IMG/VR virus record: IMGVR_UViG_3300021594_000641
Coordinates: 32,001 to 96,000 of that record
Source of the DNA: a virus
Length of the DNA stretch: 64,000 bases
Reading direction: 5' to 3' (one strand)
The notes under the pieces were generated by a model. The model saw only the letters and a list, made by a program, of their open reading frames with translations, searched no databases and was not told the DNA's origin. Every line of letters begins with the position of its first letter. Position 1 is the first letter of the stretch. The position numbers and the translations under genes are program-made. Below are positions 1 to 20,651 of this stretch, in pieces.

Positions 1-1
1 A

Positions 2-1399
2 GTAAACCCTGAGCTCTACAGAATCTCTGGTAGTCGTGTTTTGAATTGCTGTAAGACACCTTCTGTGCATGTCAGGAAAGTTTCCATAGAGCAGAACAAA
101 CATTGTTATCTTTCCGCCTATGTGCGGAGAGTCTACGAGCCTGGTACCGGCGGATTGTCTGACCACAGGTCCGTTGAAAGCATCAACCATCAAGTTAGTT
201 CTTGGAGACGCCAGCTCTGGGGTCACTAGCTTTGGAGGACCTGTGTCTATTGTTTCCTTCTTGTTTACCGCCAAAGACAATTCAGTCACTGCGTAAGGTG
301 TTTCATTTATGGGCATGTCCAACATCTGTTCGCTCATGGTAGGTTCGCCTCCTTCCCTTAAAACGAACAAGCTGAACCTTTCCTCGCCTTGTTTAAAAGT
401 TATAGGCTGGGTTACATCTGGAAGCACCATACCCTCCAATAACGGCAAAGTGCCGTCTAGGTAATAACTCAAAACAGAACCTACCACTTTTTCAACAGTT
501 ATCATGTCCATGCACAGCGGAACCATCTGACCTTTTTCCGCCTGCACTGGATACGAGCAAAAACTTCTGTCTCCTTCAGCCCTTTGTACTTTATTTTTCC
601 AGCAGCCTTTCTTGGCGCAGCAGTCAAGCTTTCCTATGGTGTGAAGATATCTATGGCTTACAGGCAACAAATTTTGAACCGGCACCAGAGCGGGATTTCT
701 TTGGTGATACGCTTCCCACCACCATTCTTCCCTGCCAGCACCTGTTACTACGCAAGGCTTTCCAAAGGCTGCGGCTATGTGCATCGCTGAAGTGATTGTG
801 CAAATAACTCCGTCTGCGCTGTTTATCAGACGCATCATTTGTCTGATGTCTGTTTTTCCCACCATGTCTAAAACGTTGTTCAGTTTAGGGTGAGCGTGTG
901 TAGGATGACTTCCTTTACCGCCTACCTGAACAAACTTTATTCCAAAGGGCCTTAAAGAATCCACAACCTTCTGGCACCTGTCGTATATCCAGTGCTTTGT
1001 TGTAAAGTCGTTCTTACCCCCAGCCACTATTACCCAATAGCGTCCTTCTATCAAAGACTCTTGCTCTTCTTCGTTTAAATGTAAATCTGGATGAGGCTGA
1101 AGCAGAGACACTTTTATGTTAGTTTGTTTTTCAAAATCTTTATGGAAAGAGCTTATGAAATGAGTATGTTCTGTAGCCGCTTTTTTTATGTAAGCTCCGT
1201 ACGTTAGGTTTACTATCCTGGCGTTCTTCTTGTCAGGCATTGGCTTAACGTAAGGATTGTTAAGCCACACGTCTCTAAACGTAGTGTCTACATTTATGTG
1301 AAATCTTCCTGGGTAACTCTTCTCAAGATCGCGTGCAAGGGCGGTCATTACGACTATGTCGCCTAAAGCCCTTTGGTGCCTTAATATGATCTTTTCCAT
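2..1399 (-). CDS. Glycosyltransferase fusion: N-terminal GT9 (heptosyltransferase WaaF/RfaF-like) domain plus start of a GT2-like domain; 3-prime partial, not in ORF track
   Basis: Hand translation from ATG at 1399: MEKIILRHQRALGDIVVMTALARDL...WVIVAGGKNDFTTKHW...VQVGG...LDMVGKTDIRQMMRLINSADGVICTITSAMHIAAAFGKPCVV (GT9-type LGD and MHIAAAFGKP motifs), then GGKITMFVLLYGNFPDMHRRCLTAIQNT (GT-A/GT2-like start). The frame stays open to the window edge (466 codons). Confidence 0.85.
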   Translation of the reverse strand, partial: MEKIILRHQRALGDIVVMTALARDLEKSYPGRFHINVDTTFRDVWLNNPYVKPMPDKKNARIVNLTYGAYIKKAATEHTHFISSFHKDFEKQTNIKVSLLQPHPDLHLNEEEQESLIEGRYWVIVAGGKNDFTTKHWIYDRCQKVVDSLRPFGIKFVQVGGKGSHPTHAHPKLNNVLDMVGKTDIRQMMRLINSADGVICTITSAMHIAAAFGKPCVVTGAGREEWWWEAYHQRNPALVPVQNLLPVSHRYLHTIGKLDCCAKKGCWKNKVQRAEGDRSFCSYPVQAEKGQMVPLCMDMITVEKVVGSVLSYYLDGTLPLLEGMVLPDVTQPITFKQGEERFSLFVLREGGEPTMSEQMLDMPINETPYAVTELSLAVNKKETIDTGPPKLVTPELASPRTNLMVDAFNGPVVRQSAGTRLVDSPHIGGKITMFVLLYGNFPDMHRRCLTAIQNTTTRDSVELRVY

Positions 1400-1408
1400 T
1401 TAAGCCTT

Positions 1409-1855
1409 TCAAGACACCGGCTCGTACTTATCGCATTCCGTGCATACGGCTATATCTTTATAGTCACCAGCGCGCCTACATTTTTCAAACAAATTACACT
1501 TGTGCGTTACTGCGCCATTGCAACCGCAGCTTGAAGCTTTTTCTAGCGGTGGTCCTAGATGTACGCAAGGCACTCTAAGCCTTTGAATTTTTTCGTTAGC
1601 TGTTCCTTTGACGTTTATAGTTTTGGGTACTGGTACAGGGTTAGTGTAAGAGCTGCTAAGCTCAACGGGATGTCCCACCATTTCTGGATGGTTTTCTTGA
1701 ATGTATTTAATCAATTCTGCTTTGTAGGGTATGAAAGAAGCGCTAATCTTTAAAAAGTCCAAGCTGACGCTTCCAACAGGTGTCAGCTTGCCGTCGATTA
1801 CTCGCATCTTAACGTTGTGCTCTGCGCACTTAGCTAATATTTCTTGAGGTGTCAT
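1409..1855 (-). CDS. Hypothetical protein with small N-terminal helical domain and C-terminal Cys cluster
   Basis: Start moved to ATG 1855 (ATGA overlap with upstream stop at 1852-1854). C-terminus CVHL..SCGC..HKCNLFEKC..VCTEC. Confidence 0.65.
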   Translation of the reverse strand: MTPQEILAKCAEHNVKMRVIDGKLTPVGSVSLDFLKISASFIPYKAELIKYIQENHPEMVGHPVELSSSYTNPVPVPKTINVKGTANEKIQRLRVPCVHLGPPLEKASSCGCNGAVTHKCNLFEKCRRAGDYKDIAVCTECDKYEPVS

Positions 1856-3279
1856 CGGCACTCCATTTGGTACGTTTGACCTTCTGTCGGATACGGTGAA
1901 AGTGTAGCAGGGTCTGGAGGAGACGGACAAGAGCACGTGTAACCCATGTTACTGTGACAATTAGACGAATCCAAAACCCAAGCCTCAAACAAAGAACTGA
2001 AAACGTAAGTGCATATACCAGAACAGATATACTGGTTAACGCTTACGGCATTAGTACCAAAATTTCCGCAACTTGGAGTTGTGCCTGTGCCCGTGTAGCA
2101 CAATTCTGGAAGAATGTCTGGGTTAGGAAACTTCATCGCGTAGATAAATACGCGAGCTTGTAACATAGCAAAATCAACTTGCATAACGTATGGAGTAGCG
2201 TCAGAAACAACAGTTACGGAGCTAGCTACCTCGTAGGCGTATGGGAAACTCGTAGCCCTAAGCACAAAGCACAAGCTACCGTTACCAACATCTTTAGCTA
2301 TAATCTCATAGCCTGCGCTAGAAAACACTCCTAACTGCACTTTTTGATAGACAGTATCGCCTTCACCTGGACAACCTAAATTAAAGTAGTTGTCTAAGAC
2401 TAAAAAGTGATCTGCCGTGACACTGTTTTGTCCCGTCTTCTTGCCGTAAAGGCAATTACACTTTAGTTGCGCGCCTGAGCTGGCGCAGCCGCTGGTGTAA
2501 GTATCTCCGTTTTTTAGTCCTGGAACCGTCCACCAAGGAGGAGGCCCAACACAAGCGCAGTTGTTGTAGAACAAAGCTCTAAAGCATGTAAACATCCTGG
2601 TGCCGTCAAAAAACGAGCAGACAGGACCCGTCACAGACAAACCAGGCAAAGACTCCACTTCTGGCCCACAGCCTTCAAACCAAGGAGACGTTCCAGCGTT
2701 TATTTTTACGAATCTAAGATCGCCGTGGCAAACTACAGAAGATGGACTGACTGGTATAAAATCACTAGCGTAGCTTCTTCCGCAAGGTAGACACAGGTCG
2801 GCATCTTTTCTAACTAACGAAGTACTGACGTTAAAATAAGGTTGCCAGTACGAGCCGACTAAAACATTGAATTGCAGGTCTACCTGCGCTGTCGTGTTGT
2901 TTATCTGAGTAAACTTAGCCAAAATTTCTAAGAGAATAGAGCCGCCATCGCTGGTAGGCCTGGAACTTCTCTCCGCTCTACCTACCCAAATGTTAGCTGC
3001 GTACTCTTCACCTTCGCCTACAGGTGGGCAGGCTAGTTGTATTTCTGTTTCTTCAAAACCCCAAAACCAACTAGGAGACGGATAGTTGGAGTTCTCGTTA
3101 ACATATGTTTGATTGCCGGTGTTCAGACGGCAGGGGACGGTATAGAACGAAAAAGATATTCGGCCTGTTTTCATAGGCCAGCCAGCATTGCACAAAGAGC
3201 ATTCAAGAAAAGTACCGATTACTTCGTAGTAATCTTGTTTGCACAGATTGTATGCTACGGACTGAGTTTCTTGCGGCAT
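1852..3279 (-). CDS. Cys-rich putative tail-fibre/receptor-binding-associated protein
   Basis: 475 aa, 26 Cys by hand count, rich in beta-strand-forming and aromatic residues. Translationally coupled within the fibre operon. Confidence 0.55.
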   Translation of the reverse strand: MPQETQSVAYNLCKQDYYEVIGTFLECSLCNAGWPMKTGRISFSFYTVPCRLNTGNQTYVNENSNYPSPSWFWGFEETEIQLACPPVGEGEEYAANIWVGRAERSSRPTSDGGSILLEILAKFTQINNTTAQVDLQFNVLVGSYWQPYFNVSTSLVRKDADLCLPCGRSYASDFIPVSPSSVVCHGDLRFVKINAGTSPWFEGCGPEVESLPGLSVTGPVCSFFDGTRMFTCFRALFYNNCACVGPPPWWTVPGLKNGDTYTSGCASSGAQLKCNCLYGKKTGQNSVTADHFLVLDNYFNLGCPGEGDTVYQKVQLGVFSSAGYEIIAKDVGNGSLCFVLRATSFPYAYEVASSVTVVSDATPYVMQVDFAMLQARVFIYAMKFPNPDILPELCYTGTGTTPSCGNFGTNAVSVNQYICSGICTYVFSSLFEAWVLDSSNCHSNMGYTCSCPSPPDPATLSPYPTEGQTYQMECR

Positions 3280-4520
3280 TACGGCACCAGATAGGCAGCG
3301 AAGTTACCCATGCTTATAACTCTTTCTACAGTTTCGTTTGAGTTTAGAATTTTCAATTTTAAACGCGCTCCCCAATCACCTCTAGGTGAACCGCAAAGAA
3401 AATAGGTTTTGTCTGGAAAACATATGCCCCTAATCTGCGGATTCCAGGTGTTTCCAATAGTGTTGTTCGGCCTCCAGAATCTTTTAGAACATATCCTTGG
3501 AGACTTAAGAGAACCAGGGCTTGCAGGGCTAGCTACCATATAAATGTGAACGTCAACGCTGTGAGCGTCCTTCCATCGCTTAACTGGCGGTTGAGGGTTT
3601 TCTGAAGATGTCCAGTCTATAGGCAGGTTTCCTGGGTCTGCCGCTGTCTGCGCTCCTTGGTCATTAGCTCCAACATAAAAGTTATTATTGAAAAAAATCA
3701 TATGACAAAGCCCGATGTACTGCCCTAAAGGCGTTCCGCTACTGTTGTAAGCGGTTATAGGCGTACAAAACGGTATCAGCCCTTTACCTGTGGGCAACCA
3801 GGTAGTAACTGGTGTCGCGCCCGAGTCTTCCCACCAGTCAGTTGCTTGAAAAGGTTGTGGTACGTCTGCATTCGTCCATATGTGTTTTGCTGGATAGCTG
3901 AATCCAAGGCTGTCTTTAGGACAGTTTGGTTCGCCGTCCGTAGTCATGTCCGTAACGCCTTCATCCGTAAAACACCAGTTAAGGTAGTTAGAATACTGCG
4001 CATCGCAAGACGTTCTTCTTTTAACTGTGTAATAAGCGTGATAGTTAGCTATACCAGGACCAACAGCGTACATTGGCGGGTCAAGCGGGTTTTCTATTTC
4101 TGGAGGGTGCGCGGCTGCTGAGTTAAGCTGTGGTGGGCTAAAAGGCGGGTGAGTTCTTCTAAACTTCCATTTGTCCAAGTCTGCGCTTGAAAAACGCAAA
4201 GTCGGCAAACTTTTAACTCTGTAAGGATTATGCTGATTTATTAAGTTTTCTCCAGAATGCCCGTAGACTGCTCCTGTTTTTTCGCTACCTATTCTCGAAG
4301 AGAGCGGAAGAAACAAGTCTTGTATGTAGCCGCTTTCAAGGGACTCAGGGTAAAACTGAGCTGAAGCACAGTTTCCTAAGTTATAAACTATAGGGTAGCT
4401 GCCTGTTTGAGAGCTGTGAAAAACATGTACGGTAGCTGTCTTGAAAGGTTCACAGACATATGACTGCTGAGAACCCCCACCACATTTGGCTAACAGTCTA
4501 TGTGCTGATCTGCCTCGCAT
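3279..4520 (-). CDS. Putative tail-fibre-associated virion protein
   Basis: 413 aa, AGGAG RBS, rich in Pro/Trp/Cys, lies in the fibre gene cluster. Confidence 0.5.
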   Translation of the reverse strand: MRGRSAHRLLAKCGGGSQQSYVCEPFKTATVHVFHSSQTGSYPIVYNLGNCASAQFYPESLESGYIQDLFLPLSSRIGSEKTGAVYGHSGENLINQHNPYRVKSLPTLRFSSADLDKWKFRRTHPPFSPPQLNSAAAHPPEIENPLDPPMYAVGPGIANYHAYYTVKRRTSCDAQYSNYLNWCFTDEGVTDMTTDGEPNCPKDSLGFSYPAKHIWTNADVPQPFQATDWWEDSGATPVTTWLPTGKGLIPFCTPITAYNSSGTPLGQYIGLCHMIFFNNNFYVGANDQGAQTAADPGNLPIDWTSSENPQPPVKRWKDAHSVDVHIYMVASPASPGSLKSPRICSKRFWRPNNTIGNTWNPQIRGICFPDKTYFLCGSPRGDWGARLKLKILNSNETVERVISMGNFAAYLVP

Positions 4521-4533
4521 AAATCAACTCCTA

Positions 4534-5547
4534 TTAACCTTCAGGAGGTGGTGGTTCTTCTGTAGTGGTTGTAGTGGTAGGTTCCTCAGTTGTAGTAGTT
4601 GTAGTTGTAGTGCCGCAGTTGTTTAAACAGTTCTGCATTGTTGAGTATCTTTGACTACTACTAGACGGTGTTCGCATAAAGTAATCACAGCCAACCACAG
4701 ATTGCTGCAAGGTCGGGTTGTAATAATTGTGGCAGTAAAATCCAGGACCTTGATTAATGTAACAAGCGGCTAAACAAGCTTCTTGAGTTGGATAAGCGTC
4801 CTTCGTTGATCCCGATGGTCGGGCGTCTGATTGAACACAGTTACCAGACACACACCACCACGGGTTAGGCGTATTACCGCCTCCTGCGCAAGCCGAATTA
4901 CAGTCGCTTGTTGATGCGTAAGGACCGCTCAAAACCGTCACAACACCGCTAACCCCTGGGAAAAACCAAGAGGTAACGCAGCCATACGTATCACTTTGCT
5001 CGTAGCGTACGCACCAGGTGGGTGGGCGGTCGTTGGGTCCTGGCTCGCAGGCGCCCGTGACGTAACCTCCCCACGAGGTTATTTCAAAAGGCATTTGGCA
5101 TATGCCGTTGTTGACTATTCCACTCATGTTGAATGTGACGTTTCCAGACCCATCAGTAGAGCACGAGCCTGTAACAGACGTAGCATTAGTTACTTTCCAT
5201 CTGTCAGTAAACGCTGAACCAGACAGGCTAGAGCCTTTACAAATGGGATAAAAGTCGTTTGCAGTGCTGGCTATAAACAAGCCAAAACTGTTTATGCCTG
5301 GAGCTGAGTAACTTATGCTTGGGCACGGACTCGTACGCCACAATGTCACAGGAGTTTCGCTTAATGGCCAATTTAACGAAGACTGACAAAATGAGTTAGG
5401 AAAAAAAGGATTAATGCTTGTAGCTGGGCCTATAGTGCCACTGAAATACAGAGGAAAGTCACAACAAAAACCGCAGCATAACCTAGACTGAGGAGCCGCG
5501 GTATCTAATGCTTCGGAACCTGTGCAATTAAAAGACTGCGTTGTCAT
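4534..5547 (-). CDS. Cys-rich protein with three 4-Cys repeats and a Thr/Glu/Pro C-terminal tail (putative fibre tip)
   Basis: Start moved to ATG 5547 (ATGA overlap). 23 Cys in 337 aa; ends CGTTTTTTTTEEPTTTTTTEEPPPPEG. Confidence 0.65.
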   Translation of the reverse strand: MTTQSFNCTGSEALDTAAPQSRLCCGFCCDFPLYFSGTIGPATSINPFFPNSFCQSSLNWPLSETPVTLWRTSPCPSISYSAPGINSFGLFIASTANDFYPICKGSSLSGSAFTDRWKVTNATSVTGSCSTDGSGNVTFNMSGIVNNGICQMPFEITSWGGYVTGACEPGPNDRPPTWCVRYEQSDTYGCVTSWFFPGVSGVVTVLSGPYASTSDCNSACAGGGNTPNPWWCVSGNCVQSDARPSGSTKDAYPTQEACLAACYINQGPGFYCHNYYNPTLQQSVVGCDYFMRTPSSSSQRYSTMQNCLNNCGTTTTTTTTEEPTTTTTTEEPPPPEG

Positions 5548-6356
5548 GATTGGTACTGCACAATCAGTTGGTTGCCCTGACAATAAACACCAGTAACTAT
5601 AGAACCATAATAGGTTTGAGGGCAACAGGCCATAGGTGTCTCTGTGCCGTCGCTGCCGTCCGCTCCGTCTGAACCATCGTCTCCTTTTATATTTGTATCA
5701 CGAGGCCCCCAGTTTCCATTCTTTTTCTTATAAACATCACCTCTACCAACATTTCCGTAAACTCCTGACCCTAGATAAGTTTCTCCTCTGTTTAGGTAAA
5801 AGTCGTTGTCTCTACCTATTGAGTTTGACGGAGGACCGTAACCGGATAGCCAGATACTTGGCTTGGGCACACCAAATTTAAAAGTAAGTACGCTGCCACA
5901 CTTGTCTTCAGACGGATACTTATCTCTTTTCTTAACAGAGGCTGTAGGTATCTCAGCAGCTGGTAGAGAAGAAGCTGAAGCTTCAAAGTCAAAATCTGGA
6001 CAAGGCAGCGATAGGCTTATCTGAAAATCATTGTCGTATTCGCATATGGACGAGCTAGAACTTTTATCAAGATTTACTATGAATCTTGGATTTGTAGCTT
6101 TCTTGGAGTATTCAATCTTTGACCCTGTGACGTTTAGATTGACTCTAGGGCAGGGTCCGTCCAGACCAGGCAAGCCTGCAACTCCGGCTGGCCCTACAGG
6201 GCCTATCTGCGGAAGGTCTATGTCTAAAACAGGGCAGTCCATTATAGGGGGCGGAATAAACGGTATTTCGCAGTCATCAACATAGGCAAAGGCATCAGCC
6301 GGTATTGCTGCTATGGATGAGATGCTGCATTTGCTTGTGTCAAAAATAGCTGGCAT
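5544..6356 (-). CDS. Tail fibre protein with short collagen-like segments
   Basis: GPVGPAGVAGLPGLDGP and GDDGSDGADGSDG G-x-x triplets; fibre-type segment WLSGYGPPSNSIGRDNDFYL...GDVYKKKNGNW..IKG. Confidence 0.7.
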   Translation of the reverse strand: MPAIFDTSKCSISSIAAIPADAFAYVDDCEIPFIPPPIMDCPVLDIDLPQIGPVGPAGVAGLPGLDGPCPRVNLNVTGSKIEYSKKATNPRFIVNLDKSSSSSICEYDNDFQISLSLPCPDFDFEASASSLPAAEIPTASVKKRDKYPSEDKCGSVLTFKFGVPKPSIWLSGYGPPSNSIGRDNDFYLNRGETYLGSGVYGNVGRGDVYKKKNGNWGPRDTNIKGDDGSDGADGSDGTETPMACCPQTYYGSIVTGVYCQGNQLIVQYQS

Positions 6357-6376: not shown

Positions 6377-7393
6377 TTACGCAGGGCAGCCAGCTAGTCC
6401 GTGACTGTCGCCTGATATGATTATCGTGTGCGCGTCGTTTCCTGGTTTTACCTCAACTCCTTGTCCGCCCACTATCCGCACTACCTTACCGCTAACTCCG
6501 TTTATTGATTGAAATATTTCTTTGCAGGCGGGTCCGCCTGTGTAGAACAAGCCTCCGTCTGGAGAAACTTCTTCTGGATAAAATTTAAACTCAGAACAAG
6601 GCTCTCCTTCTCCTGCGCCTACTTCTCCACCTATTGTCATGGAATTATCGTTAGAGTTTAACCTGAGGGTGCAGTTGAATCCTGGTTTTATTTTAACGTC
6701 TCCAAACAAGCACTCAGACTGCACATACACTAAATCGTCTACAGGCTCTACGTTGTCGCATCCAGCGACATTTGTTACCACGGTCCTAGACCTGTTAGCC
6801 ACGTTTATTGTTCTAACGTAGCCATCTGACAAATTTTGAATCAAAGCAGGCTCTACGTATATACCTTTAGTATTGTCAGCTACGGATTCTCCGTCAGGAG
6901 CCGCGTCAGCATAAAGAATAAAATTTTCTCCAGACTTGTGCAGCAAACCGTCATACACGGTTTTCCAAGTCAAAATAGTAGTGGGTATAAAAGAAAGATC
7001 GGCATAAGCCAGCTTTCCTATAACCATGAAGCCTTCCCATTTCACATCGTCGTTGCAGTACCCTTCCACCTGCGACTGCGTAAGATACTCTTCAGAAACA
7101 ATCTCGTTTGAAAATTGAGTAGCGTATTCAGGATCGCCAGTTCTGAACCTAAAAACCAAAGACTTACCAACTAATCCTGGAGCATCGCATTTAAAATGAA
7201 AAGTATAGTCGTCAGAAACTTTAGTTATTTGGTACAGCCATACTTTATGCGTTCCTGGAACAAACCCAGAGTTAGCCCGCATGGTACAGCCAAAGTCCAC
7301 TATGGCTTTGTTTGATAGAACAAAAGCTCCAGAGTCCTTTACAAAAGGATAAGCCCTAAACTCGTTATCAGAATAAAAACCTGCTCTGCTCAT
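6377..7393 (-). CDS. Baseplate/tail-fibre paralog family member
   Basis: N-terminal FYSDNEFRAYPF motif and QSINGVSG motif shared with neighbouring paralogs. Confidence 0.6.
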   Translation of the reverse strand: MSRAGFYSDNEFRAYPFVKDSGAFVLSNKAIVDFGCTMRANSGFVPGTHKVWLYQITKVSDDYTFHFKCDAPGLVGKSLVFRFRTGDPEYATQFSNEIVSEEYLTQSQVEGYCNDDVKWEGFMVIGKLAYADLSFIPTTILTWKTVYDGLLHKSGENFILYADAAPDGESVADNTKGIYVEPALIQNLSDGYVRTINVANRSRTVVTNVAGCDNVEPVDDLVYVQSECLFGDVKIKPGFNCTLRLNSNDNSMTIGGEVGAGEGEPCSEFKFYPEEVSPDGGLFYTGGPACKEIFQSINGVSGKVVRIVGGQGVEVKPGNDAHTIIISGDSHGLAGCPA

Positions 7394-8163
7394 TAGTTTC
7401 CTCCCAGCTGCTGACCGGCCAGTTCGATTCTTATCGAGTTTCCTCCGGCTTCTGGGTAAATCCTAAGAATAGTGTCTGCTGCTATTTCGTTATTAACAGA
7501 TAGCTGGAAGTCTCCGTAGCTGTTTGGCGGTATGTTATTTATTGTCTTTACAAAATTAGGAGTTGTGAAGAACTCTGTGCTTGAGCACAGCTTTCTTTTA
7601 AAGAGCGGATCACCTATCAAATCTATTCGTATAGAGTCGTCAGTGTCTTGCCTGACAGCTACTCCATTTTCTCCAACAAGCCAGATGTCGCCTGTAACCA
7701 CCGACCCGTCTGGAAGCAAAAATCCACTAACGTGATTTTGTGGCATAGGTATTACGGTAGAAGCCACAAACTCGGCGTTTATACCAAAGTCATGATCTCC
7801 GCTTTGCCAACTTTGAAAAACAGACAGTCTTTGTTCATCACTAACTATTATTCCCGCAGACCTTCCGTGTTTGTCGTAGAGAGGAACTTCTCCCACATCT
7901 CCAAGAGGGTCGAATGTTCCTGTTATTAAAACAGTGCCTGACGAGTTTCCTATAGTTAATATAACTTCCCGTATTTGAACTGATATTTTTTTAAGATACA
8001 TAGGAGACGCTAACCCAGCAGGGTATATGGCAGCGTCCAAAAAAATATCTTTGGGTAGGTCGTATCCGGTGTCTGCTTTAAGGCTTGAGGAGTCAGAAAA
8101 CGGATATCTGGTATCAGCCAGCTCGTCCCTATACTCAAGACCAAAGACTCTTTCTACTGACAT
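7393..8163 (-). CDS. Baseplate/tail-fibre paralog family member
   Basis: YRDELADTRYPFSDS and KTINNIPPNSYGDFQL motifs. Confidence 0.6.
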   Translation of the reverse strand: MSVERVFGLEYRDELADTRYPFSDSSSLKADTGYDLPKDIFLDAAIYPAGLASPMYLKKISVQIREVILTIGNSSGTVLITGTFDPLGDVGEVPLYDKHGRSAGIIVSDEQRLSVFQSWQSGDHDFGINAEFVASTVIPMPQNHVSGFLLPDGSVVTGDIWLVGENGVAVRQDTDDSIRIDLIGDPLFKRKLCSSTEFFTTPNFVKTINNIPPNSYGDFQLSVNNEIAADTILRIYPEAGGNSIRIELAGQQLGGN

Positions 8164-8175
8164 GGCTGTCTCCGG

Positions 8176-10410
8176 TCATGCCTTCTCAATGTGAAAATAA
8201 GAAAACAGGGCAGGGCTCTTGTCTGACCCTACGCCAGAAACACCAACAGCTTTACCGTAAAGTGACGTTTGCGTAGTGACGGTCATCAGCCTTTCTGCTG
8301 AGGATGTATCTTCAAGAGCTACATTTATTTTTGCAGACTCGCTGTCTTCTCCAGGCTTTACTGACACAGACAGCCTGTACCATTTGTTCTTTTCTATCTT
8401 TATTTCAGAGGACGAACTTATTGGGTAAGCAGACTCCCCCGATATCTTTGAAATATTTACCTTTCCGTTCTCTTGGTCTAGTTCTACAAAAATGAACTCG
8501 TTATTTTTTGTTTCCAAATTAAACTTACTGTTAAGGACTATTCCGGCGTTGCTGCCTTCTTCAGGTATCAATATTTCTGAAGATATTAGTAAATTACTTG
8601 AAGATGTGTAACCGCAGTCGTGCCACAATGCTGAATTGAAATAAGTTGTGCTCAAAGCTCTATAGACAGTCTCCATAGACAAGAACCCAGAGTCTATCTC
8701 TGGAGGCTTTACTGTGTTGAATTCTCCTGAGTCTATGTACCACTTATCCGCAGTGTCATTGTTGAAATACAAAGTCACAGGTAAATCTTGACAGTCAAGA
8801 GTTATTACAGAAACACTTTCGTCTAACAAAGCGGCAGGTGTTGGAGTTGTCGTAGGCTTAGGTTCCCACTCTATGCTCATCTGGCCAGCAGGGTCGCAAG
8901 GCTTGGTCATGTCTGCAATAGCCGGGCAGTCATTATGAGTTGATAGCCTGACAGAAAGAGAAGTGCTGTGGTCATTTATAGCGTAAAGCTCAACTTTAAA
9001 AGTGCTGTTAGATTTAAAAGCGGTTCCTCCAAATTTTTGATTTATTTCTGTACTCTTTCCGTATTCAAGTTTAACTTTTTTAGAAGTAAAAATAAGCCTT
9101 TCTTTTAATGAGTCAAACAAGACTCTGTAGACCTTAACGTATATACGAACTTTTTTATATATTTCCAGAAGAGTCCCAGACGGTAGACTTACTTTAAAAT
9201 AAAAAAACCAATTACTTACAGGTAAATTAAAATCATGAGGAATAGGGTTAGGATCGCAAGGCACGTTAGAACAAAACTGTAGAAAAGGGACATCCCCGCA
9301 ATCAGTGTATGTATGTACATACGTTTCTAACTTTATTTCTTTTTTGGGGGCTATAGCTTTTTCGTAATAGCTTGGACCTCCCGGACAACAACAGTCTGCC
9401 CCAGGAGGACAGTCGCATCCGTGATAGCTTACTCTGCCATATTCGCCTATATGCCCAAAAGGCCTACCGGGAAGAAGTGGATAATAATGTCTGACTAGTT
9501 CACACTGAGGGTCTTTACTTCCTCCAAAATCTCCTGCGTCATCTGGAAGTCTGTTGGTAGCCGCGCAAGTATCTATAAGACCCAGCGGGTAATCTACGGC
9601 TATTCCTCCTATTTCATTTTCATCTTCATCAACATATTTGGCTGTTTCAAAAGGTTCTTCAAATATTATGTTTATATTCCCTGCGCAGTCTGGCACAGCA
9701 GAGTTTATGAACTGAATACCTTCCTTGTTGCACGTGTTGCTTTCAGGTCTTCCAGAGCAACTACCTCTGTACTTATCAAATACGTTAGTGTTAGGGTCTT
9801 CTTTCAATGCGACGACTATGGCTTGCCTTTCTATCCCGTCTATTAACTTTGTTTGTTTTGTTATTGATACATTGGTTCCTTCCTTTAGCTCTATCAGACC
9901 TTTAAACAATATGGAGCTATTTACTTTAGACAAAGAAGTCACGGGAAAGTTAGAATAGAACCTAGAAGTTTTTGGATTCAAAGACGACTGGCTAGAACTA
10001 CTAAACCTTCCGCTATACTCAGTGTTGGTGCCTTCTCCAAATACTATCCAGCCGCCAACTCCTTCGCTGAGAGGATTGACAGAATAAGGCTTACCTATCT
10101 GAAGAGGTTTTTTTACAGTCACGGCACAAACAGGAGAATACGTTTCTACGGCTACAGGTTGATCTGTGTCTGAATAGTTGGCCGGATGCTTTACTGCCAC
10201 AAGAGTAACTGTTACTAAAGTTTTAGTTACGTTTACGCCGCTGACCATTACCAGTGAGCCTAAAGACTTCGGCAGCCTAAGATTTATATCTGTAATTATA
10301 GTGTCAGACATGTTGACGCCGTTGTCGTCAACGCCCGTGACTCCATCGTCCAGAGGATACTGCCTGGTCGAATTAAGGTTATACCAGTTGTTGTTTACAA
10401 CCGAACCCAT
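8176..10410 (-). CDS. Baseplate/tail-fibre paralog with C-terminal concanavalin-A/LamG-like beta-sandwich
   Basis: WYNLNSTRQYPLDD and FINSAVPDCAGNINI motifs; C-terminal AGIVL...FVELDQENGKVNI...KNKWYRLSVSV...GVSG pattern typical of lectin-like folds. Confidence 0.6.
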   Translation of the reverse strand: MGSVVNNNWYNLNSTRQYPLDDGVTGVDDNGVNMSDTIITDINLRLPKSLGSLVMVSGVNVTKTLVTVTLVAVKHPANYSDTDQPVAVETYSPVCAVTVKKPLQIGKPYSVNPLSEGVGGWIVFGEGTNTEYSGRFSSSSQSSLNPKTSRFYSNFPVTSLSKVNSSILFKGLIELKEGTNVSITKQTKLIDGIERQAIVVALKEDPNTNVFDKYRGSCSGRPESNTCNKEGIQFINSAVPDCAGNINIIFEEPFETAKYVDEDENEIGGIAVDYPLGLIDTCAATNRLPDDAGDFGGSKDPQCELVRHYYPLLPGRPFGHIGEYGRVSYHGCDCPPGADCCCPGGPSYYEKAIAPKKEIKLETYVHTYTDCGDVPFLQFCSNVPCDPNPIPHDFNLPVSNWFFYFKVSLPSGTLLEIYKKVRIYVKVYRVLFDSLKERLIFTSKKVKLEYGKSTEINQKFGGTAFKSNSTFKVELYAINDHSTSLSVRLSTHNDCPAIADMTKPCDPAGQMSIEWEPKPTTTPTPAALLDESVSVITLDCQDLPVTLYFNNDTADKWYIDSGEFNTVKPPEIDSGFLSMETVYRALSTTYFNSALWHDCGYTSSSNLLISSEILIPEEGSNAGIVLNSKFNLETKNNEFIFVELDQENGKVNISKISGESAYPISSSSEIKIEKNKWYRLSVSVKPGEDSESAKINVALEDTSSAERLMTVTTQTSLYGKAVGVSGVGSDKSPALFSYFHIEKA

Positions 10411-16006: not shown

Positions 16007-17503
16007 TCACAGCAAATTTCCCCGCACAACGCGTGCGACTATTGTGTCTGACACATCGGTTGTGGTTATTTCTGTTTCAAAGGTTGTTCCCATACCTGTG
16101 AACGACCCTATCTCTTCAGTATCCTCGTAATCAGCTTGCAGCACTTCTTCTTCAATGTCTTGCAAGTCTATTAGAAGAAACATGGTTGTGTGAGGCGGTA
16201 TCAGGTTTCTTAAATAAGTAATATTTTCTATTCCAGCGAAACCTGGCCTAACCGATCCTGCCTTTATTTTTACCAAAAAAGCGCCGTTTCTTAAAACGTT
16301 TTCGGCCAAAAATTTCAAAGGGTTGATTACTGAAGGTACGTTAGTGGGTCCTGGCTCTCCGTATTTCACAGGCCTATTATCGAATGCGTCTGCAAGGGTC
16401 ATGGCCATAGCCAAGCCCCTCTTGTGCGTGTCATCCCAGAAAGCTTCCACATCAAAAGGATGCCCGCCAAGATAAAAGCTCATCTTGGCTTTTCCATTAC
16501 TGTCGTACTCAAAATCTACCGGCACTTCTTCGTTATTAAATCCTATGTCGCCTATGTATTGTATTCCCATGTATCTTTTTGAAAGGTTTAGACCCTTCAA
16601 AGATTCTGGCACCTCTCCTCTGTTAAACTCATGCACTAAAATTCCATCAGTCATTTCCTGGTCTACTCTTAACGAGTCACCGATAGAAACAACGGCTTGA
16701 GAATTTTTGTTAAACTTGTAAACATTTTTATTTGTAATGACAAGTAAGTTATTTCTGTCGTAAGTTATGTCTTCTACGGTTTCATTTCCTTTTGCCAGAG
16801 GTATGCCGGTAGTGGCGGCTATCCCGTCCAAAGTTTTTCCCATGGACGTGCCTAAAACCATTGAATCGTATACGTTGTTCAACAAATCTTTGTATGGCTG
16901 ACTAGACTTAGCCCACAGTCCTATAACGTAGCCAAAATGGCTGTACAGGTATTCTTTGTCTATTCTTGGCAATTGAAGCCATAAAACTATCTCTTCGTCT
17001 CCTTCTGTGGTTTGATGCGCAAAACTGTCATTATTGAAAGGGTTCTCAGCGAAGAATAAACGATGATTGGCTGAGTCTATATAAAAATCAAGGTTTCTAA
17101 ATAGAACAGTTGAAGGGCTGGATATTCTATTTGTGATTATGGGGCAATCTACTATTTCTTCAGGCAGAGGATAAAAAAAAGAAAATCCTGAAGACCTTCT
17201 TCCGTAACTGGCAGCGGTTGTTCCGTAATAGCTTTCTTCGCCATAATTATTAGCCAGGCCGGATATTACTGACTTTTTCATAGTCAGCTCTAACCAGTAT
17301 TCTTTTCTAAATACTGGAATGTCCAATCTGCTTCTGCAATCTATGGCTTCTTGAAGCCTTTCAAAAGTTTGCTTTGTTAGATTGCATCGTCCTTTTAATG
17401 CTTCGGCCAGGTAGTCGTTGCCGGTATAAACTTCCTCCCAGAATCCTCCAAGGAGTCGGAGGATCTGACCCTTGTCATCCAGCTGGGTAGGAAAATTTAT
17501 CAT
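16007..17503 (-). CDS. Baseplate wedge protein (gp7/P2 gpI-like position)
   Basis: 498 aa, downstream of baseplate J; ends with the YLRNLIPPHTTMFL motif typical of wedge subunits. Confidence 0.55.
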   Translation of the reverse strand: MINFPTQLDDKGQILRLLGGFWEEVYTGNDYLAEALKGRCNLTKQTFERLQEAIDCRSRLDIPVFRKEYWLELTMKKSVISGLANNYGEESYYGTTAASYGRRSSGFSFFYPLPEEIVDCPIITNRISSPSTVLFRNLDFYIDSANHRLFFAENPFNNDSFAHQTTEGDEEIVLWLQLPRIDKEYLYSHFGYVIGLWAKSSQPYKDLLNNVYDSMVLGTSMGKTLDGIAATTGIPLAKGNETVEDITYDRNNLLVITNKNVYKFNKNSQAVVSIGDSLRVDQEMTDGILVHEFNRGEVPESLKGLNLSKRYMGIQYIGDIGFNNEEVPVDFEYDSNGKAKMSFYLGGHPFDVEAFWDDTHKRGLAMAMTLADAFDNRPVKYGEPGPTNVPSVINPLKFLAENVLRNGAFLVKIKAGSVRPGFAGIENITYLRNLIPPHTTMFLLIDLQDIEEEVLQADYEDTEEIGSFTGMGTTFETEITTTDVSDTIVARVVRGNLL

Positions 17504-18998: not shown

Positions 18999-20651
18999 TT
19001 ACGCTAATGAAGTATCAGAGTTTTTAATGTAAATACCTATGTCGTCTGGACTTAGAATAAAAACAACAGTTTTAGCCGATATCATGTTTTCATGATCTTC
19101 AGGAATTATTAGTGATTCAAAGCTTCTTAAGTATTTTTTTGTTAAGTCAGACTTTTGTATTGCGCCAAACATTTCTATAGCGCTAACCGTTTGGTTTTGA
19201 GCCAAATAACTATGAATGGTGGACTGGAGTATTGAAGCCGATAGTTTTCCGCAAAACCCCAGCTTGTTAACTCTATTAGCTAAAGCGTTTTTAATTGCTG
19301 ATTCGTCTATGTTAGAGTCGGTTGACTTTTTAAATATTGTAAAAGATAACTTTAGATCGCACGGTATTGCAGCTTTTACTAGAACGTCTCCTCCGGCAGG
19401 CCTAACATCACGACTGCTCAAAAAACTCTGTATGTTCTGTAAAAGATTCATTCCCCGAGCGTATATTGAATATTCAGCAGTAGCGCCTTCTGTTAAGCCA
19501 GGCGCAGTCTCTAAGTCTATAAACCTTATAATTGCAGTTTGATAAGGAGAATAGGCAGCCTCCTTGCTATTAACTATGTCAGGCACAAAAGAAGAACCGT
19601 CTTCGGATATGTCGTAACCTCTGATGTCTTCGTACACCCCTAAACCTGTTTCTGAAGCACTGTCTACCACAGTTGCTTTTATTATTTTTTCTATGTTGTA
19701 AAACCCAGGCACGTCATTCCTGGATATGGATACTTGCCACAAGCCTCCGCCGCCTTCTCTTCCTATTAGAGTAGCCGTCTTTGTTATTTTTCTTGAGGTT
19801 GGCAGCTGTTGGCTTCTTATATAAACATCAAGTCTGTTGCCAGTAGCCGTGGGAAGAATGCTGTGGTAGCGAATTTGTTCTGGATCACCAAATCCTATAG
19901 TCGATACGTCTAGAACCGTTTTGAAAGAAGTGTTTTCTTTTATGCAAGATTCTATTGTTGCCCTGTTTGACAAATCCCTAGCAGATATCCCTGTCTGAAG
20001 TCTCTTTACAAAATCTGAGTTAGACTCATAATCTGAACCGCCTGAAAAGTCAGACTCTGCATAGGCAGTTAAGAAGTAAGGTATAGCCGAGTCTGACTCT
20101 AAAGAAGTGTTTCTTTTTATGTTTGCCGTTACAGAATTAGTAGTAGACACGGCGTCGATCACATAATAGTATGTGCCGTCTCCAACAGGCTTTATAAGCC
20201 TGTCGTTGAAATTAACTACCTGGTCTGCAGAAGTCCTAGCGAAGAAAGACTGCAGAGGCGCATAAGTGTTACCCAGAGATGAAAAGGTATTTGATGTAGA
20301 CACACTAGACGGTACTAGCGCGCTTATCACTATGACTATTTTTCCTGAAGCCGGAGAACCTTCAAACCTTACTGCTCTAAAGTTTGAGGCCAGTTGATCA
20401 ACAACGTCGTCAACAGCGAGAGTTGGGTCGTTGTTTATAGCTAGAAGAGAGCCTGACTTCCTAAGCCTGTCAGCATACTCGTCCTGAGCTGTTTGCAGTA
20501 TTGCCTCAAAATGAAAAAGGATATCGTGCAGAACGCCTCTCTTGCTGTCTATGCTTGGGGCGTACTCAGTAATTTTTTGCGCTATGTAAGCGTGCGCCTG
20601 GTTTACGGCATCTGAGTTTAAAGTTGTCAGATCAGGTAAAGTTATAGCCAT
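18999..20651 (-). CDS. Baseplate J-like protein (gp6/gpJ)
   Basis: ITEYAPSIDSKRGVLHDIL, FSGGSDYESNSDFVKRL, VSTIGFGDPEQIR and GNRLDVYIR motifs; follows the gp25-like gene. Confidence 0.85.
   Translation of the reverse strand: MAITLPDLTTLNSDAVNQAHAYIAQKITEYAPSIDSKRGVLHDILFHFEAILQTAQDEYADRLRKSGSLLAINNDPTLAVDDVVDQLASNFRAVRFEGSPASGKIVIVISALVPSSVSTSNTFSSLGNTYAPLQSFFARTSADQVVNFNDRLIKPVGDGTYYYVIDAVSTTNSVTANIKRNTSLESDSAIPYFLTAYAESDFSGGSDYESNSDFVKRLQTGISARDLSNRATIESCIKENTSFKTVLDVSTIGFGDPEQIRYHSILPTATGNRLDVYIRSQQLPTSRKITKTATLIGREGGGGLWQVSISRNDVPGFYNIEKIIKATVVDSASETGLGVYEDIRGYDISEDGSSFVPDIVNSKEAAYSPYQTAIIRFIDLETAPGLTEGATAEYSIYARGMNLLQNIQSFLSSRDVRPAGGDVLVKAAIPCDLKLSFTIFKKSTDSNIDESAIKNALANRVNKLGFCGKLSASILQSTIHSYLAQNQTVSAIEMFGAIQKSDLTKKYLRSFESLIIPEDHENMISAKTVVFILSPDDIGIYIKNSDTSLA

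What the first reader, a model, noticed from the sequence alone, without database searches (positions are those of the whole stretch)
2..5547. Probable virion-glycosylation locus: GT9+GT2 fusion at the end of the Cys-rich/Thr-tailed fibre operon
Seen: an ORF missing from the track (2..1399) encodes a heptosyltransferase-like GT9 domain fused to a GT2-like start. It begins 9 nt after the upstream stop, in a tightly packed run that includes a protein ending in a mucin-like TTTTTTTTEEPTTTTTTEEPPPP tail. Established: GT9 enzymes transfer ADP-heptose in LPS core synthesis, and some mycobacteriophages glycosylate their own capsid and tail proteins with phage-encoded GTs. Inference: the phage decorates its fibres or virion with glycans (possibly heptose), or modifies host LPS receptors for exclusion.
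Basis: partly seen in the sequence, partly recalled or inferred. Interest (0 to 1): 0.75.

Follow-up and report, generated by a model that had tools for sequence, protein, structure and literature searches.

The report
Phage heptose protein-glycosylation locus
A large uncultured lake phage ends its tail-fibre gene block with a two-headed sugar-transferase, and also makes the activated sugar ADP-heptose itself, so it most likely coats serine/threonine-rich tails of its own particle proteins with heptose-containing sugars, though no sugar has been measured.

Summary
The ORF cut by the window edge is a 668-aa protein with three parts: a GT9 heptosyltransferase-fold domain (1-320), a disordered linker, and a GT-A/GT2-like domain with an invariant DDD motif (430-668). 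It starts 9 nt after the upstream stop, at the end of a tightly coupled run of Cys-rich proteins. One of these ends in TTTTTTTTEEPTTTTTTEEPPPP.

New evidence:
- The fusion is a conserved part of the baseplate/fibre module in over 400 uncultured phage sequences, many on 150-235 kb contigs.
- The phage encodes its own bifunctional HldE (ADP-heptose synthase), as do 15 of 28 large relatives.
- The GT9 domain belongs to a subfamily with five invariant cysteines. Its bacterial members, mostly Planctomycetota, sit in operons with HldE, a small Cys-motif protein and RHS proteins carrying long poly-Ser tracts.
- The phage gene pair repeats that pattern. A Cys-motif protein lies just upstream. A conserved 155-aa protein with Ser-rich termini lies just downstream, and most relatives without the transferase lack those tails.

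Most likely this is cytoplasmic O-glycosylation, heptose included, of Ser/Thr tracts on phage structural proteins. No glycan or activity has been shown. Host-envelope modification remains a live rival.

The scan noted the same fusion in two other genomes, and further transferase clusters in this genome.

The parts
2..1399 (-). First 466 codons of the 668-aa GT9 + GT-A bifunctional glycosyltransferase. The gene runs 607 nt past the window's left edge, to genome 31393.
   Evidence: ORF. Pfam GT9 above cut-off and GT2_3 below it. Model. Fold matches: GT9 Z 23.1-18.4, TibC Z 19.5, GT-A Z 17.1-15. Invariant D14, K129, H207, R223, E224, C260/261/266/281/296 and D523-D525.
1409..1855 (-). 148-aa protein with the C-terminal Cys motif C-x-H-x-G...C-x-C-x-G...C...C...C-x2-C-x2-Y. 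Possible accessory of the GT9 enzyme.
   Evidence: The start ATG at 1855 overlaps the upstream stop (ATGA). The motif lies just upstream of the transferase in 9 viral loci. In 4 Planctomycetota loci it lies in the slot between HldE and the RHS gene. No Pfam, PHROG or NCBIfam hit.
1852..3279 (-). 475-aa Cys-rich protein (26 Cys), part of the variable fibre-like cassette.
   Evidence: Homologues occur in only 4 close loci. No family hit.
3279..4520 (-). 413-aa protein (11 Cys), part of the variable cassette.
   Evidence: No family hit.
4534..5547 (-). 337-aa Cys-rich protein. Its last 25 residues (coded at 4537..4611) are T8-EEP-T6-EEPPPPEG. Candidate O-glycosylation acceptor.
   Evidence: No homologue in the 79 related loci. 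No Atlas hit.
5544..6356 (-). 270-aa protein with a short collagen-like stretch (GPVGPAGVAGLPGLDGP), an SSSSS run and 10 Cys. Fibre-like.
   Evidence: Translation. S run. Homologues in 3 loci.
6377..10410 (-). Three conserved baseplate/fibre-base proteins (338, 256 and 744 aa). They mark the upstream border of the variable cassette across the clade.
   Evidence: tblastn found them in 32-36 of 79 loci, always in the same order upstream of the transferase. Using the 256-aa protein as an independent probe, 33 of 46 loci hold the GT9 domain within 10 kb downstream.
18999..20651 (-). Baseplate J-like protein. It anchors the module as baseplate/tail.
   Evidence: Pfam PF04865, E=1.5e-8.

Best explanation
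The locus is a phage-encoded protein O-glycosylation system that uses heptose.

Proposed steps:
1. The phage's own HldE (genome 184399..185889) raises the ADP-heptose supply in the infected cell.
2. The 668-aa enzyme is soluble and has no signal peptide. It is made together with the last tail-fibre genes.
3. Its Cys-cluster GT9 domain transfers heptose, and its DDD-motif GT-A domain transfers a second sugar.
4. The acceptors are exposed Ser/Thr-rich tracts of phage structural proteins, modified before assembly.
5. Candidate acceptors are the Ser-rich termini of the conserved 155-aa protein encoded 7 nt downstream, the poly-Thr tail of the 337-aa fibre-cassette protein, and the poly-Thr linkers of fibres encoded elsewhere in the genome.

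Shown: domain folds, conserved catalytic-type residues, gene linkage, presence of HldE, and the parallel bacterial operons.

Inferred: the donor sugar, the acceptors, the order of the two transfers, that the acceptors are in the virion, and the benefit (shielding or stiffening fibres, or host recognition).
For: Enzyme:
- GT9 Pfam hit above cut-off.
- The N-domain superposes only on heptosyltransferases at the top of the list: 3TOV Z 23.1, WaaF 20.6, TibC 19.5, WaaC 19.0.
- D14 sits where HMMER aligns WaaF's VGD. It is invariant in 35 phage sequences and kept in 79 of 81 bacterial ones.
- The GT-A fold has an invariant DDD.
- In 11 related loci the two domains are separate neighbouring genes, so they are functionally linked.

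Donor:
- The phage encodes a full-length HldE (NF008454 E=6e-108; TIGR02198 and TIGR02199 both matched end to end).
- It has exactly one GT9 gene.
- 15 of 28 large relatives that carry the transferase have HldE.
- None of three near-complete relatives without the transferase has HldE.

Protein acceptor:
- Bacterial members of the same five-Cys GT9 subfamily share 34-39% identity over residues 1-318, and all five Cys are kept in 81 of 81.
- They lie in operons of the form GT9/methyltransferase, HldE, small Cys protein, RHS protein.
- RHS proteins with [ST] runs of 7 or more: 27 of 38, against 3 of 369 other ORFs of at least 300 aa in the same loci.
- TibC shows that GT9-fold enzymes can heptosylate protein serines. 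It has a Cys4 iron finger inserted in the same lobe (PMC4358343).

Phage acceptors:
- The 155-aa gene follows the transferase in 70 of 79 loci.
- Its family has a compact core (model pLDDT 87) flanked by poly-Ser.
- A run of at least 4 Ser within 30 aa of a terminus occurs in 22 of 41 members, against 14 of 1160 other ORFs.
- Ser-rich tails occur in 45 of 53 homologues from loci with the transferase, against 2 of 6 from loci without it.
- One of those two exceptions (L192) lies on the only transferase-lacking contig that still has HldE.

Context:
- The gene is third from last in a >60-kb co-directional structural run, with gaps of 13 nt or less.
- No convincing terminator-like site was seen between the fibre genes and the 99-aa gene.
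- Proteins with at least 5% Cys are enriched within 6 kb upstream of the transferase: 53 of 226 against 20 of 706.
- Extra GT2+TPR-like genes and a methyltransferase-like gene, judged from their sequences alone, sit beside the transferase in some relatives.
Against: - No glycan, enzyme activity, virion proteome or transcript has been observed, and no RNA run holds the locus.
- Fold and sequence do not separate a protein acceptor from an LPS acceptor. By sequence the nearest solved relatives are the LPS enzymes WaaF and WaaC, not TibC.
- Ser tails are not universal in the 155-aa family. Only 48 of 120 wider cluster representatives have a terminal run of at least 4 Ser, yet the transferase is present in those lineages.
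- The Thr-tailed protein is unique to this phage.
- 13 of 28 transferase-carrying relatives lack HldE.
- The phage lacks GmhA, GmhB and an HldD-type epimerase, so heptose supply would still depend on the host.
- The enrichment statistics count related sequences and are not independent events.
- The fold of the 155-aa protein matches nothing known, so its place in the virion is unproven.
Confidence: 0.5

Rival explanations
1. The enzyme modifies the host envelope. It would add heptose plus a second sugar to the LPS inner core or another host glycoconjugate during infection. The purpose could be to block superinfection or to stop progeny from sticking to debris.
For: By sequence the closest characterised relatives are the LPS heptosyltransferases WaaF and WaaC (NCBIfam heptosyltransferase I/II/III hits at E around 1e-5). 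T4-like cyanophages carry heptose-pathway genes that are annotated, not assayed, as heptose/ADP-heptose synthesis enzymes. The phage lacks part of the heptose pathway, which implies a host that already makes heptose.
Against: - All NCBIfam LPS-heptosyltransferase scores are far below the equivalog cut-offs (24 against 134.6 bits).
- The gene sits in the late structural run, not among early or lysogeny genes.
- In my clustering of the bacterial loci, the recurrent neighbours were poly-Ser RHS proteins, HldE, epimerase-like and GmhB-like genes. No recurrent neighbour was recognised as a core-assembly gene, but 38 of 79 loci had no classified neighbour.
- The N-lobe is compact, and a Cys cluster sits where the protein-heptosyltransferase TibC has its iron finger.
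Confidence: 0.2
2. The enzyme glycosylates some other target. This could be a non-virion phage or host protein, phage DNA bases, or a free or lipid-linked oligosaccharide. Its place after the fibre genes would then be historical rather than functional.
For: - The C-terminal GT-A domain has a stand-alone paralogue (30% identity, E=6e-29) in the nucleotide/replication block, beside what look by eye like ThyX-type and dCTP-deaminase-type genes.
- The genes downstream of the transferase (155 aa, 99 aa, 199 aa, AAA+ ATPase) form their own conserved block of unknown role.
- 13 of 46 loci sampled by a baseplate protein lack the transferase within 10 kb downstream, so it is dispensable.
Against: - No GT9-fold DNA glycosyltransferase is known to me (own knowledge).
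- The fusion, unlike its paralogue, always lies in the structural run.
- The poly-Ser correlations in both phages and bacteria point to proteins.
Confidence: 0.15
3. The GT9 domain is a non-catalytic scaffold, like the GT9-fold PnsB1 subunit of chloroplast NDH. Only the GT-A half would be an enzyme.
For: PnsB1 appears among both sequence and fold matches (E=0.017-0.021; Z 17.3).
Against: The catalytic-type Asp14, K129, H207 and R223-E224 are invariant or nearly so across phage and bacterial members. A dedicated HldE is encoded in the phage and in the bacterial operons.
Confidence: 0.05

Closest known systems
Bacterial autotransporter heptosyltransferases (BAHT: TibC, AAH; PDB 4RAP/4RB4; PMC4358343)
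   Same: - A cytoplasmic GT9-fold GT-B enzyme that uses ADP-heptose to O-heptosylate many serines of a surface protein encoded nearby.
- A catalytic Asp sits at the start of the catalytic domain.
- A cysteine metal finger is inserted in the C-lobe. TibC has Cys339/342/358/370. Here there are invariant Cys260/261/266/281/296 with similar spacing, at a similar distance from the C-terminal helix.
- Fold match: Z 19.5, 264 residues aligned, rmsd 3.1.
   Different: - No N-terminal beta-barrel; the phage protein begins where TibC residue 96 aligns.
- No detectable sequence match to TibC in the PDB profile search at E up to 10.
- Fused to a GT-A domain.
- Candidate acceptors are disordered poly-Ser/Thr tracts, not a beta-helix passenger.
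- Encoded by a phage.
- Metal content and oligomer state are unknown.
LPS inner-core heptosyltransferases WaaC/WaaF and the Veillonella GT9 structure 3TOV (CAZy GT9, Pfam PF01075)
   Same: Best sequence and fold matches (1psw E=5e-6; Z 23.1, 20.6 and 19.0). Same N-terminal G-D catalytic motif. ADP-heptose is the expected donor.
   Different: - NCBIfam equivalog scores are far below cut-off.
- The N-lobe is compact.
- The five-Cys cluster, the W-rich GGREEWWWEAY segment and the fusion to GT-A set it apart.
- Genomic neighbours are fibre genes or poly-Ser proteins rather than LPS genes.
Virion glycosylation in mycobacteriophages (Freeman et al. 2023, as summarised in PMC12619734, ref. 45)
   Same: Phage-encoded glycosyltransferases are linked to structural proteins, and glycans sit on C-terminal tails of virion subunits.
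   Different: - The enzymes there are not GT9 and heptose is not involved (own knowledge; the paper was not held).
- The hosts are Actinobacteria.
- Here the donor pathway gene (HldE) is phage-encoded and the enzyme has two domains.
Heptose-pathway genes of T4-like cyanophages (S-CAM1, S-CAM3, S-T4, S-SSM7; GenBank annotation)
   Same: Phage-encoded heptose 7-phosphate kinase / heptose 1-phosphate adenylyltransferase homologues, 30-31% identical to the HldE here.
   Different: They are split genes accompanied by phosphoheptose isomerase. No homologue of the GT9+GT-A fusion exists in any cultured phage record. Their role is also untested.
Glycosylation of collagen-like and Ser/Thr-rich surface proteins (C. 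difficile SgtA/BclA3; named by earlier scan note e1-5875361 for this genome's other transferase clusters)
   Same: Transferase genes sit beside Thr-rich fibre proteins. The same genome carries at least six further GT2-type domains near poly-Thr fibres.
   Different: Those are GT2/GT-A enzymes only. The locus studied here adds a GT9 domain, a dedicated ADP-heptose synthase and poly-Ser acceptors.

Membership tests
Pfam PF01075 / CAZy GT9 heptosyltransferase fold | Profile match above the curated threshold | tested here: met
   41.4 bits against a cut-off of 22; 43.8 bits in the six-frame genome search.
Pfam PF01075 / CAZy GT9 heptosyltransferase fold | GT-B two-lobe fold that superposes on solved GT9 enzymes | tested here: met
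   3TOV Z 23.1 (265 aligned, rmsd 2.8), WaaF Z 20.6, WaaC Z 19.0-18.4.
Pfam PF01075 / CAZy GT9 heptosyltransferase fold | Catalytic Asp in the N-terminal G-D loop (WaaC/WaaF Asp13; TibC Asp110) | tested here: met
   G13-D14 is invariant in 35 phage sequences and D is kept in 79 of 81 bacterial homologues. HMMER places it on WaaF's VGD. The equivalence rests on alignment, not on an assay.
LPS heptosyltransferase I/II/III (NCBIfam equivalogs TIGR02193/02195/02201) | Score above the equivalog cut-off | tested here: not met
   Best is 24.1 bits against a cut-off of 134.6.
LPS heptosyltransferase I/II/III | Acceptor is Kdo or heptose of the lipid A core | not testable with these tools
   Needs an enzyme assay.
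BAHT (TibC/AAH) protein heptosyltransferases | GT9-like catalytic domain | tested here: met
   Z 19.5, 264 residues aligned, model 1-321 on TibC 96-393.
BAHT (TibC/AAH) protein heptosyltransferases | Cys4 iron finger inserted in the C-lobe | tested here: inconclusive
   Five invariant Cys (260, 261, 266, 281, 296) lie in a loop-rich insert before the last helix. Their spacing resembles TibC Cys339/342/358/370. No residue-level superposition or metal data.
BAHT (TibC/AAH) protein heptosyltransferases | N-terminal beta-barrel domain (TibC 1-97) | tested here: not met
   The protein starts directly with the catalytic domain.
BAHT (TibC/AAH) protein heptosyltransferases | Sequence-level relationship to TibC/AAH | tested here: not met
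   The profile search of PDB sequences at E up to 10 lists WaaF, WaaC and PnsB1 but not TibC.
GT2 / GT-A inverting transferases | Pfam GT2 profile above threshold | tested here: not met
   PF13641 scores 19.6 bits against a cut-off of 27. PF00535 does not hit this gene in the own-genome scan.
GT2 / GT-A inverting transferases | GT-A fold with a DxD metal/nucleotide motif | tested here: met
   Z 17.1-15 to 6P61, BcsA, PcManGT, HAS, TarS, RmlT, TarP and SpsA. D523-D524-D525 are invariant.
HldE (bifunctional ADP-heptose synthase), for the gene at genome 184399..185889 | Both the kinase and the adenylyltransferase domains present full-length | tested here: met
   TIGR02198 positions 8-314 of 315, TIGR02199 positions 5-143 of 144, NF008454 positions 12-472 of 475.
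HldE (bifunctional ADP-heptose synthase) | Score above the equivalog cut-off | tested here: not met
   361 bits against a cut-off of 521, so this is a divergent member.
Phage virion glycosylation systems | Glycans on virion proteins that depend on the phage transferase | not testable with these tools
   No virions, proteome or RNA data. No RNA holder was listed.

The most novel reading that the evidence does not exclude
A previously unrecognised Ser/Thr O-heptosylation system is built around a five-cysteine GT9 enzyme, a dedicated ADP-heptose synthase and a small Cys-motif partner. It is shared by Planctomycetota, where it would coat the poly-Ser tracts of RHS surface proteins, and by a large clade of uncultured 150-235 kb aquatic phages. 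In the phages, fused to a second transferase, it would coat particle proteins. This would be the first case of heptosylated phage virions.
Probability: 0.35. Interest if true: 0.8.

Novelty: new variant of a known kind. Interest (0 to 1): 0.66.

Why it matters
Protein O-heptosylation is so far known only from one enzyme family (BAHT) acting on autotransporter adhesins. Phage-directed virion glycosylation is documented mainly in mycobacteriophages.

If this reading is right, a second lineage of protein heptosyltransferases exists, distant in sequence. It would be widespread in Planctomycetota and would have been taken up (or donated) once by an abundant, persistent group of large lake and marine phages. 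This phage's locus is seen almost unchanged in 20 DNA runs from 13 studies, 2019-2025.

Possible consequences:
- It could explain why these phages carry ADP-heptose synthase genes.
- It would give a function to poly-Ser/Thr tracts in fibres.
- It would offer a simple recombinant test: enzyme, HldE and a 155-aa acceptor.
- It bears on how phage particles resist proteases and how they recognise or avoid cell surfaces.

Tried and rejected
- PHROGs gave no hit for the transferase or any of nine neighbours.
- tblastn of the fusion against 50,697 cultured phage records found no match.
- The fold of the 155-aa protein had no usable match. BFVD best E was 0.039. The wide PDB search gave a best Z of 5.7, within the noise range.
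- ESM Atlas gave nothing usable for the Thr-tail protein or the 155-aa protein.
- The 148-aa Cys protein against DUF6171 by hhalign showed no relation (probability 1%). The link to the bacterial operons rests on the regex motif found in four loci. A different upstream protein in three relatives does carry DUF6171 (94.7%, E=6e-8).
- Own-genome searches for GmhA (PF13580, TIGR00441), GmhB (TIGR00213) and Epimerase (PF01370) found nothing.
- The sigma-70 promoter scan was uninformative, at 15 sites against 11.5 expected, and an earlier scan note says the phage has its own RNA polymerase.
- Literature searches found no paper on phage-encoded HldE function or on Planctomycetota heptosyltransferase/RHS links.
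- Freeman et al. 2023 (PMC10527164) is not held.
- The 'moraphage' lineage paper (PMC12619734) describes a different group, which lacks RNA polymerase.
- Foldseek and VIA could not tell an LPS-type from a protein-type acceptor.

Full report
**Where the window lies.** The window is bases 32001-96000 of a 189,675-bp IMG/VR virus record estimated 91% complete. All genes discussed are on the minus strand. They close a co-directional structural run of more than 60 kb. That run contains a Baseplate_J protein (window 18999-20651) and an S8 subtilase (17503-18591).

**Observation.**
- The ORF 2..1399 (-) is real and is cut by the window edge. In the full record it is 668 aa, at genome 31393..33399.
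- Pfam gives GT9 (PF01075) at E=1.4e-10, above its cut-off. It gives a GT2-like match (PF13641) at E=1e-3, below its cut-off.
- An AlphaFold model built on 35 homologues (pLDDT 82) shows a GT-B domain (1-320), a disordered linker (339-417) and a GT-A domain (430-668).
- The gene starts exactly 9 nt after the upstream stop.
- The upstream genes are tightly coupled, with two ATGA start/stop overlaps and gaps of 13 nt or less.
- They include a 337-aa, 25-Cys protein ending in T8-EEP-T6-EEPPPPEG, and a 270-aa protein with a short collagen-like stretch.

**The enzyme.**
- The N-domain matches heptosyltransferases at the top of the fold list: Veillonella GT9 3TOV Z 23.1, WaaF 20.6, TibC 19.5 and WaaC 19.0. 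The non-catalytic GT9-fold PnsB1 follows at 17.3.
- By sequence profile only WaaF, WaaC and PnsB1 are reached.
- G13-D14 aligns with the catalytic VGD of WaaF and is invariant, as are K129, H207 and R223-E224.
- Five cysteines (260, 261, 266, 281, 296) are also invariant. They lie in a loop-rich insert before the last helix.
- The protein heptosyltransferase TibC has a Cys4 iron finger (Cys339/342/358/370) inserted in the same lobe. Its spacing and its distance from the C-terminal end of the aligned range are similar. I could not make a residue-level superposition, so this correspondence is an inference.
- The C-domain is a GT-A fold (Z 17-15 to 6P61, BcsA, PcManGT, HAS, TarS, RmlT, TarP, SpsA) with an invariant D523-D525.
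- It has a stand-alone paralogue in the replication/nucleotide block, at genome 164503..165252 (30% identity, E=6e-29).

**Distribution and synteny.**
- More than 400 full-length homologues exist in public metagenome proteins, many on contigs of 150-230 kb. None is in cultured phages.
- In 79 viral loci the order is conserved: baseplate proteins (homologues of the 322-, 599-, 744-, 256- and 338-aa proteins), a variable cassette of 0.3-8 kb, the transferase, then a 155-aa gene (70 of 79 loci) and a 99-aa gene.
- The cassette is dominated by very Cys-rich proteins, with up to 65 Cys. Proteins with at least 5% Cys number 53 of 226 within 6 kb upstream against 20 of 706 elsewhere.
- 16 of 43 non-redundant loci hold a protein with an [ST] run of at least 5 within those 6 kb.
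- Some relatives add what look from their sequences like GT2+TPR genes or a methyltransferase next to the transferase. These were not run against any family library.
- In 11 loci the GT9 and GT-A halves are separate neighbouring genes.
- Sampling independently with the 256-aa baseplate protein, 33 of 46 loci have the GT9 domain within 10 kb downstream. The enzyme is therefore common in the clade but not universal.
- The Cys-rich and Thr-tailed proteins of this window are poorly conserved or unique.

**Donor sugar.**
- The genome has exactly one GT9 gene.
- At 184399..185889 it has a 496-aa bifunctional HldE whose kinase and adenylyltransferase domains both match end to end (NF008454 E=6e-108; TIGR02198, TIGR02199).
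- GmhA, GmhB and an HldD-type epimerase were not found, so the host must supply the remaining steps.
- HldE, fused or split, occurs in 15 of 28 large relatives that carry the transferase.
- It occurs in none of three near-complete relatives that lack it. These numbers are small.
- HldE-like genes are annotated in T4-like cyanophages, with no assigned role.

**Bacterial relatives.**
- Residues 1-318, Cys cluster included, have stand-alone or fused homologues at 34-39% identity. These are mostly in Planctomycetota chromosomes and MAGs, with some in Verrucomicrobiota, Acidobacteriota and Armatimonadota.
- They keep D14, K129, H207 and R223-E224. All five Cys are kept in 81 of 81.
- The phage domains form one clade (support 0.98), together with only two phage-like MAG contigs.
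- In the bacterial loci the recurrent arrangement has four genes:
  - a 900-1270-aa protein with this GT9 domain, plus a second GT9 and a Methyltransf_24 domain in the members scanned;
  - HldE (21 loci);
  - a small Cys-rich protein (DUF6171 type, or a C-x-H-x-G...C-x2-C-x2-Y type);
  - an RHS-repeat protein (31 loci).
- Those RHS proteins carry long poly-Ser tracts. 27 of 38 have an [ST] run of at least 7, against 3 of 369 other ORFs of at least 300 aa in the same loci.
- The C-x-H-x-G motif of the phage's 148-aa protein, encoded just upstream of the transferase, recurs in nine viral loci. It also occurs in four bacterial loci, exactly in the slot between HldE and RHS.

**A candidate acceptor next door.**
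- The 155-aa protein is encoded 7 nt downstream of the transferase.
- It has a compact beta-sheet-plus-helix core (pLDDT 87) with low-confidence termini. No known fold matches it.
- Across its family the core is flanked by poly-Ser at the N-terminus, the C-terminus or both.
- A terminal run of at least 4 Ser occurs in 22 of 41 members against 14 of 1160 other ORFs. In a wider set of cluster representatives the figure is 48 of 120.
- Six related loci have this gene but no transferase. For five of them the whole contig was searched and none was found.
- Ser-rich tails occur in 45 of 53 homologues from loci with the transferase, against 2 of 6 from loci without it (Fisher p=0.013).
- One of the two exceptions (L192) lies on the only transferase-lacking contig that still encodes HldE.
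- These counts involve related sequences and small numbers. They are suggestive, not proof.

**Interpretation.**
- The most economical reading is a cytoplasmic protein O-glycosylation system. HldE boosts ADP-heptose. The Cys-cluster GT9 domain puts heptose on Ser/Thr tracts and the GT-A domain adds another sugar, in an order I cannot determine.
- Candidate acceptors are the 155-aa protein, the Thr-tail protein here, and the poly-Thr fibres at 127-141 kb.
- Those fibres lie among further GT2-type genes, which I confirmed at 122-127 kb and 151-153 kb and which an earlier scan note had described.
- I put this reading at about 0.5.
- Modification of host LPS or another envelope glycan (0.2) fits the sequence kinship with WaaC/WaaF. 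It does not fit the late structural position or the neighbours of the bacterial homologues.
- A different target (0.15) and a non-catalytic GT9 domain (0.05) remain possible.

**Comparison with known systems.**
- It works most like the BAHT enzymes (TibC/AAH), but it is not a member of that family. It has no beta-barrel and no detectable sequence match, and it has a different acceptor type and a GT-A fusion.
- It is a member of the GT9 fold family, but it fails the equivalog thresholds for LPS heptosyltransferases.
- Phage virion glycosylation is known from mycobacteriophages (as cited in PMC12619734), with other enzymes and sugars.
- I therefore rate it a new variant of known kinds.

**Occurrence and limits.** The first 5.6 kb of the window occur almost unchanged (0.99 of sampled words) in 20 DNA runs from 13 studies, labelled lake-water, freshwater or 'fungus' metagenome and dated 2019-2025. 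Some of these may be the source sample. No RNA holder was listed.

**Earlier scan notes.** The scan had flagged the same fusion on two other genomes (e1-5812048, e1-6106049) without follow-up. It had also described other transferase clusters in this genome (e1-5875361).

Noticed in passing
L104, L109, L113, L121, L133, L146, L150, L155 and others (bacterial loci; genes start near position 8001): Planctomycetota operon with four genes: a multi-domain GT9(x2)+methyltransferase protein, HldE, a small Cys-rich protein (DUF6171 or C-x-H-x-G type), and an RHS-repeat protein. The RHS protein has long poly-Ser tracts and a Cys-rich N-terminus. It looks like an undescribed surface-protein heptosylation system in bacteria.
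   Followed up: partly
genome 164503..165252 (-), outside the window (L089): A stand-alone paralogue of the GT-A C-terminal domain (30% identity, E=6e-29). It lies inside the replication/nucleotide block, next to genes that look by eye like ThyX-type and dCTP-deaminase-type genes. It might act on a different target, for instance DNA bases.
   Followed up: partly
genome 184399..185889 (-), outside the window (L169 952..2442): Phage-encoded bifunctional HldE. The divergently placed 208-aa ORF beside it (genome 183798..184424, +) has no NCBIfam hit.
   Followed up: partly
genome 30611..30910 (-), outside the window; clusters 3, 13 and 44 in related loci: Small ~100-aa proteins follow the transferase/155-aa pair in 51 or more loci. 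They have a central C-x2-C (or C-x-C) and a conserved C-terminal half. Function unknown.
   Followed up: no
L017, L018, L019, L035, L046 (cluster 25); L025, L066, L077 (cluster 108); L012-L016 (cluster 64): In some relatives extra genes sit directly beside the GT9/GT-A gene. By their sequences they look like GT2+TPR genes (sometimes in tandem pairs) and a class-I methyltransferase. This suggests a variable glycan-tailoring island, but the genes were not scanned against any family library.
   Followed up: no
L023, L027, L028 (cluster 51, just upstream of the transferase): A 358-392-aa protein whose C-terminus is a DUF6171 domain (hhalign 94.7%, E=6e-8 against the bacterial operon proteins). It is a second type of Cys-rich partner shared by phage and bacterial loci.
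   Followed up: partly
L022, L024, L041, L061 (cluster 49, between the transferase and the 155-aa gene): A ~98-aa protein that looks by eye like a bacterial Ig-like domain and ends in SGSSEPL-type Ser tails. Another possible acceptor.
   Followed up: no
window 1..5600: The stretch is held at 0.99 of sampled words in 20 DNA runs from 13 studies, labelled lake-water, freshwater or 'fungus' metagenome, 2019-2025. The phage therefore seems persistent and widely sampled. Some runs may be the source sample.
   Followed up: no
window 5544..6356 (-): The 270-aa protein has six collagen-like G-X-Y triplets (GPVGPAGVAGLPGLDGP) and an acidic GDDGSDGADGSDG stretch, which fits a fibre protein.
   Followed up: no
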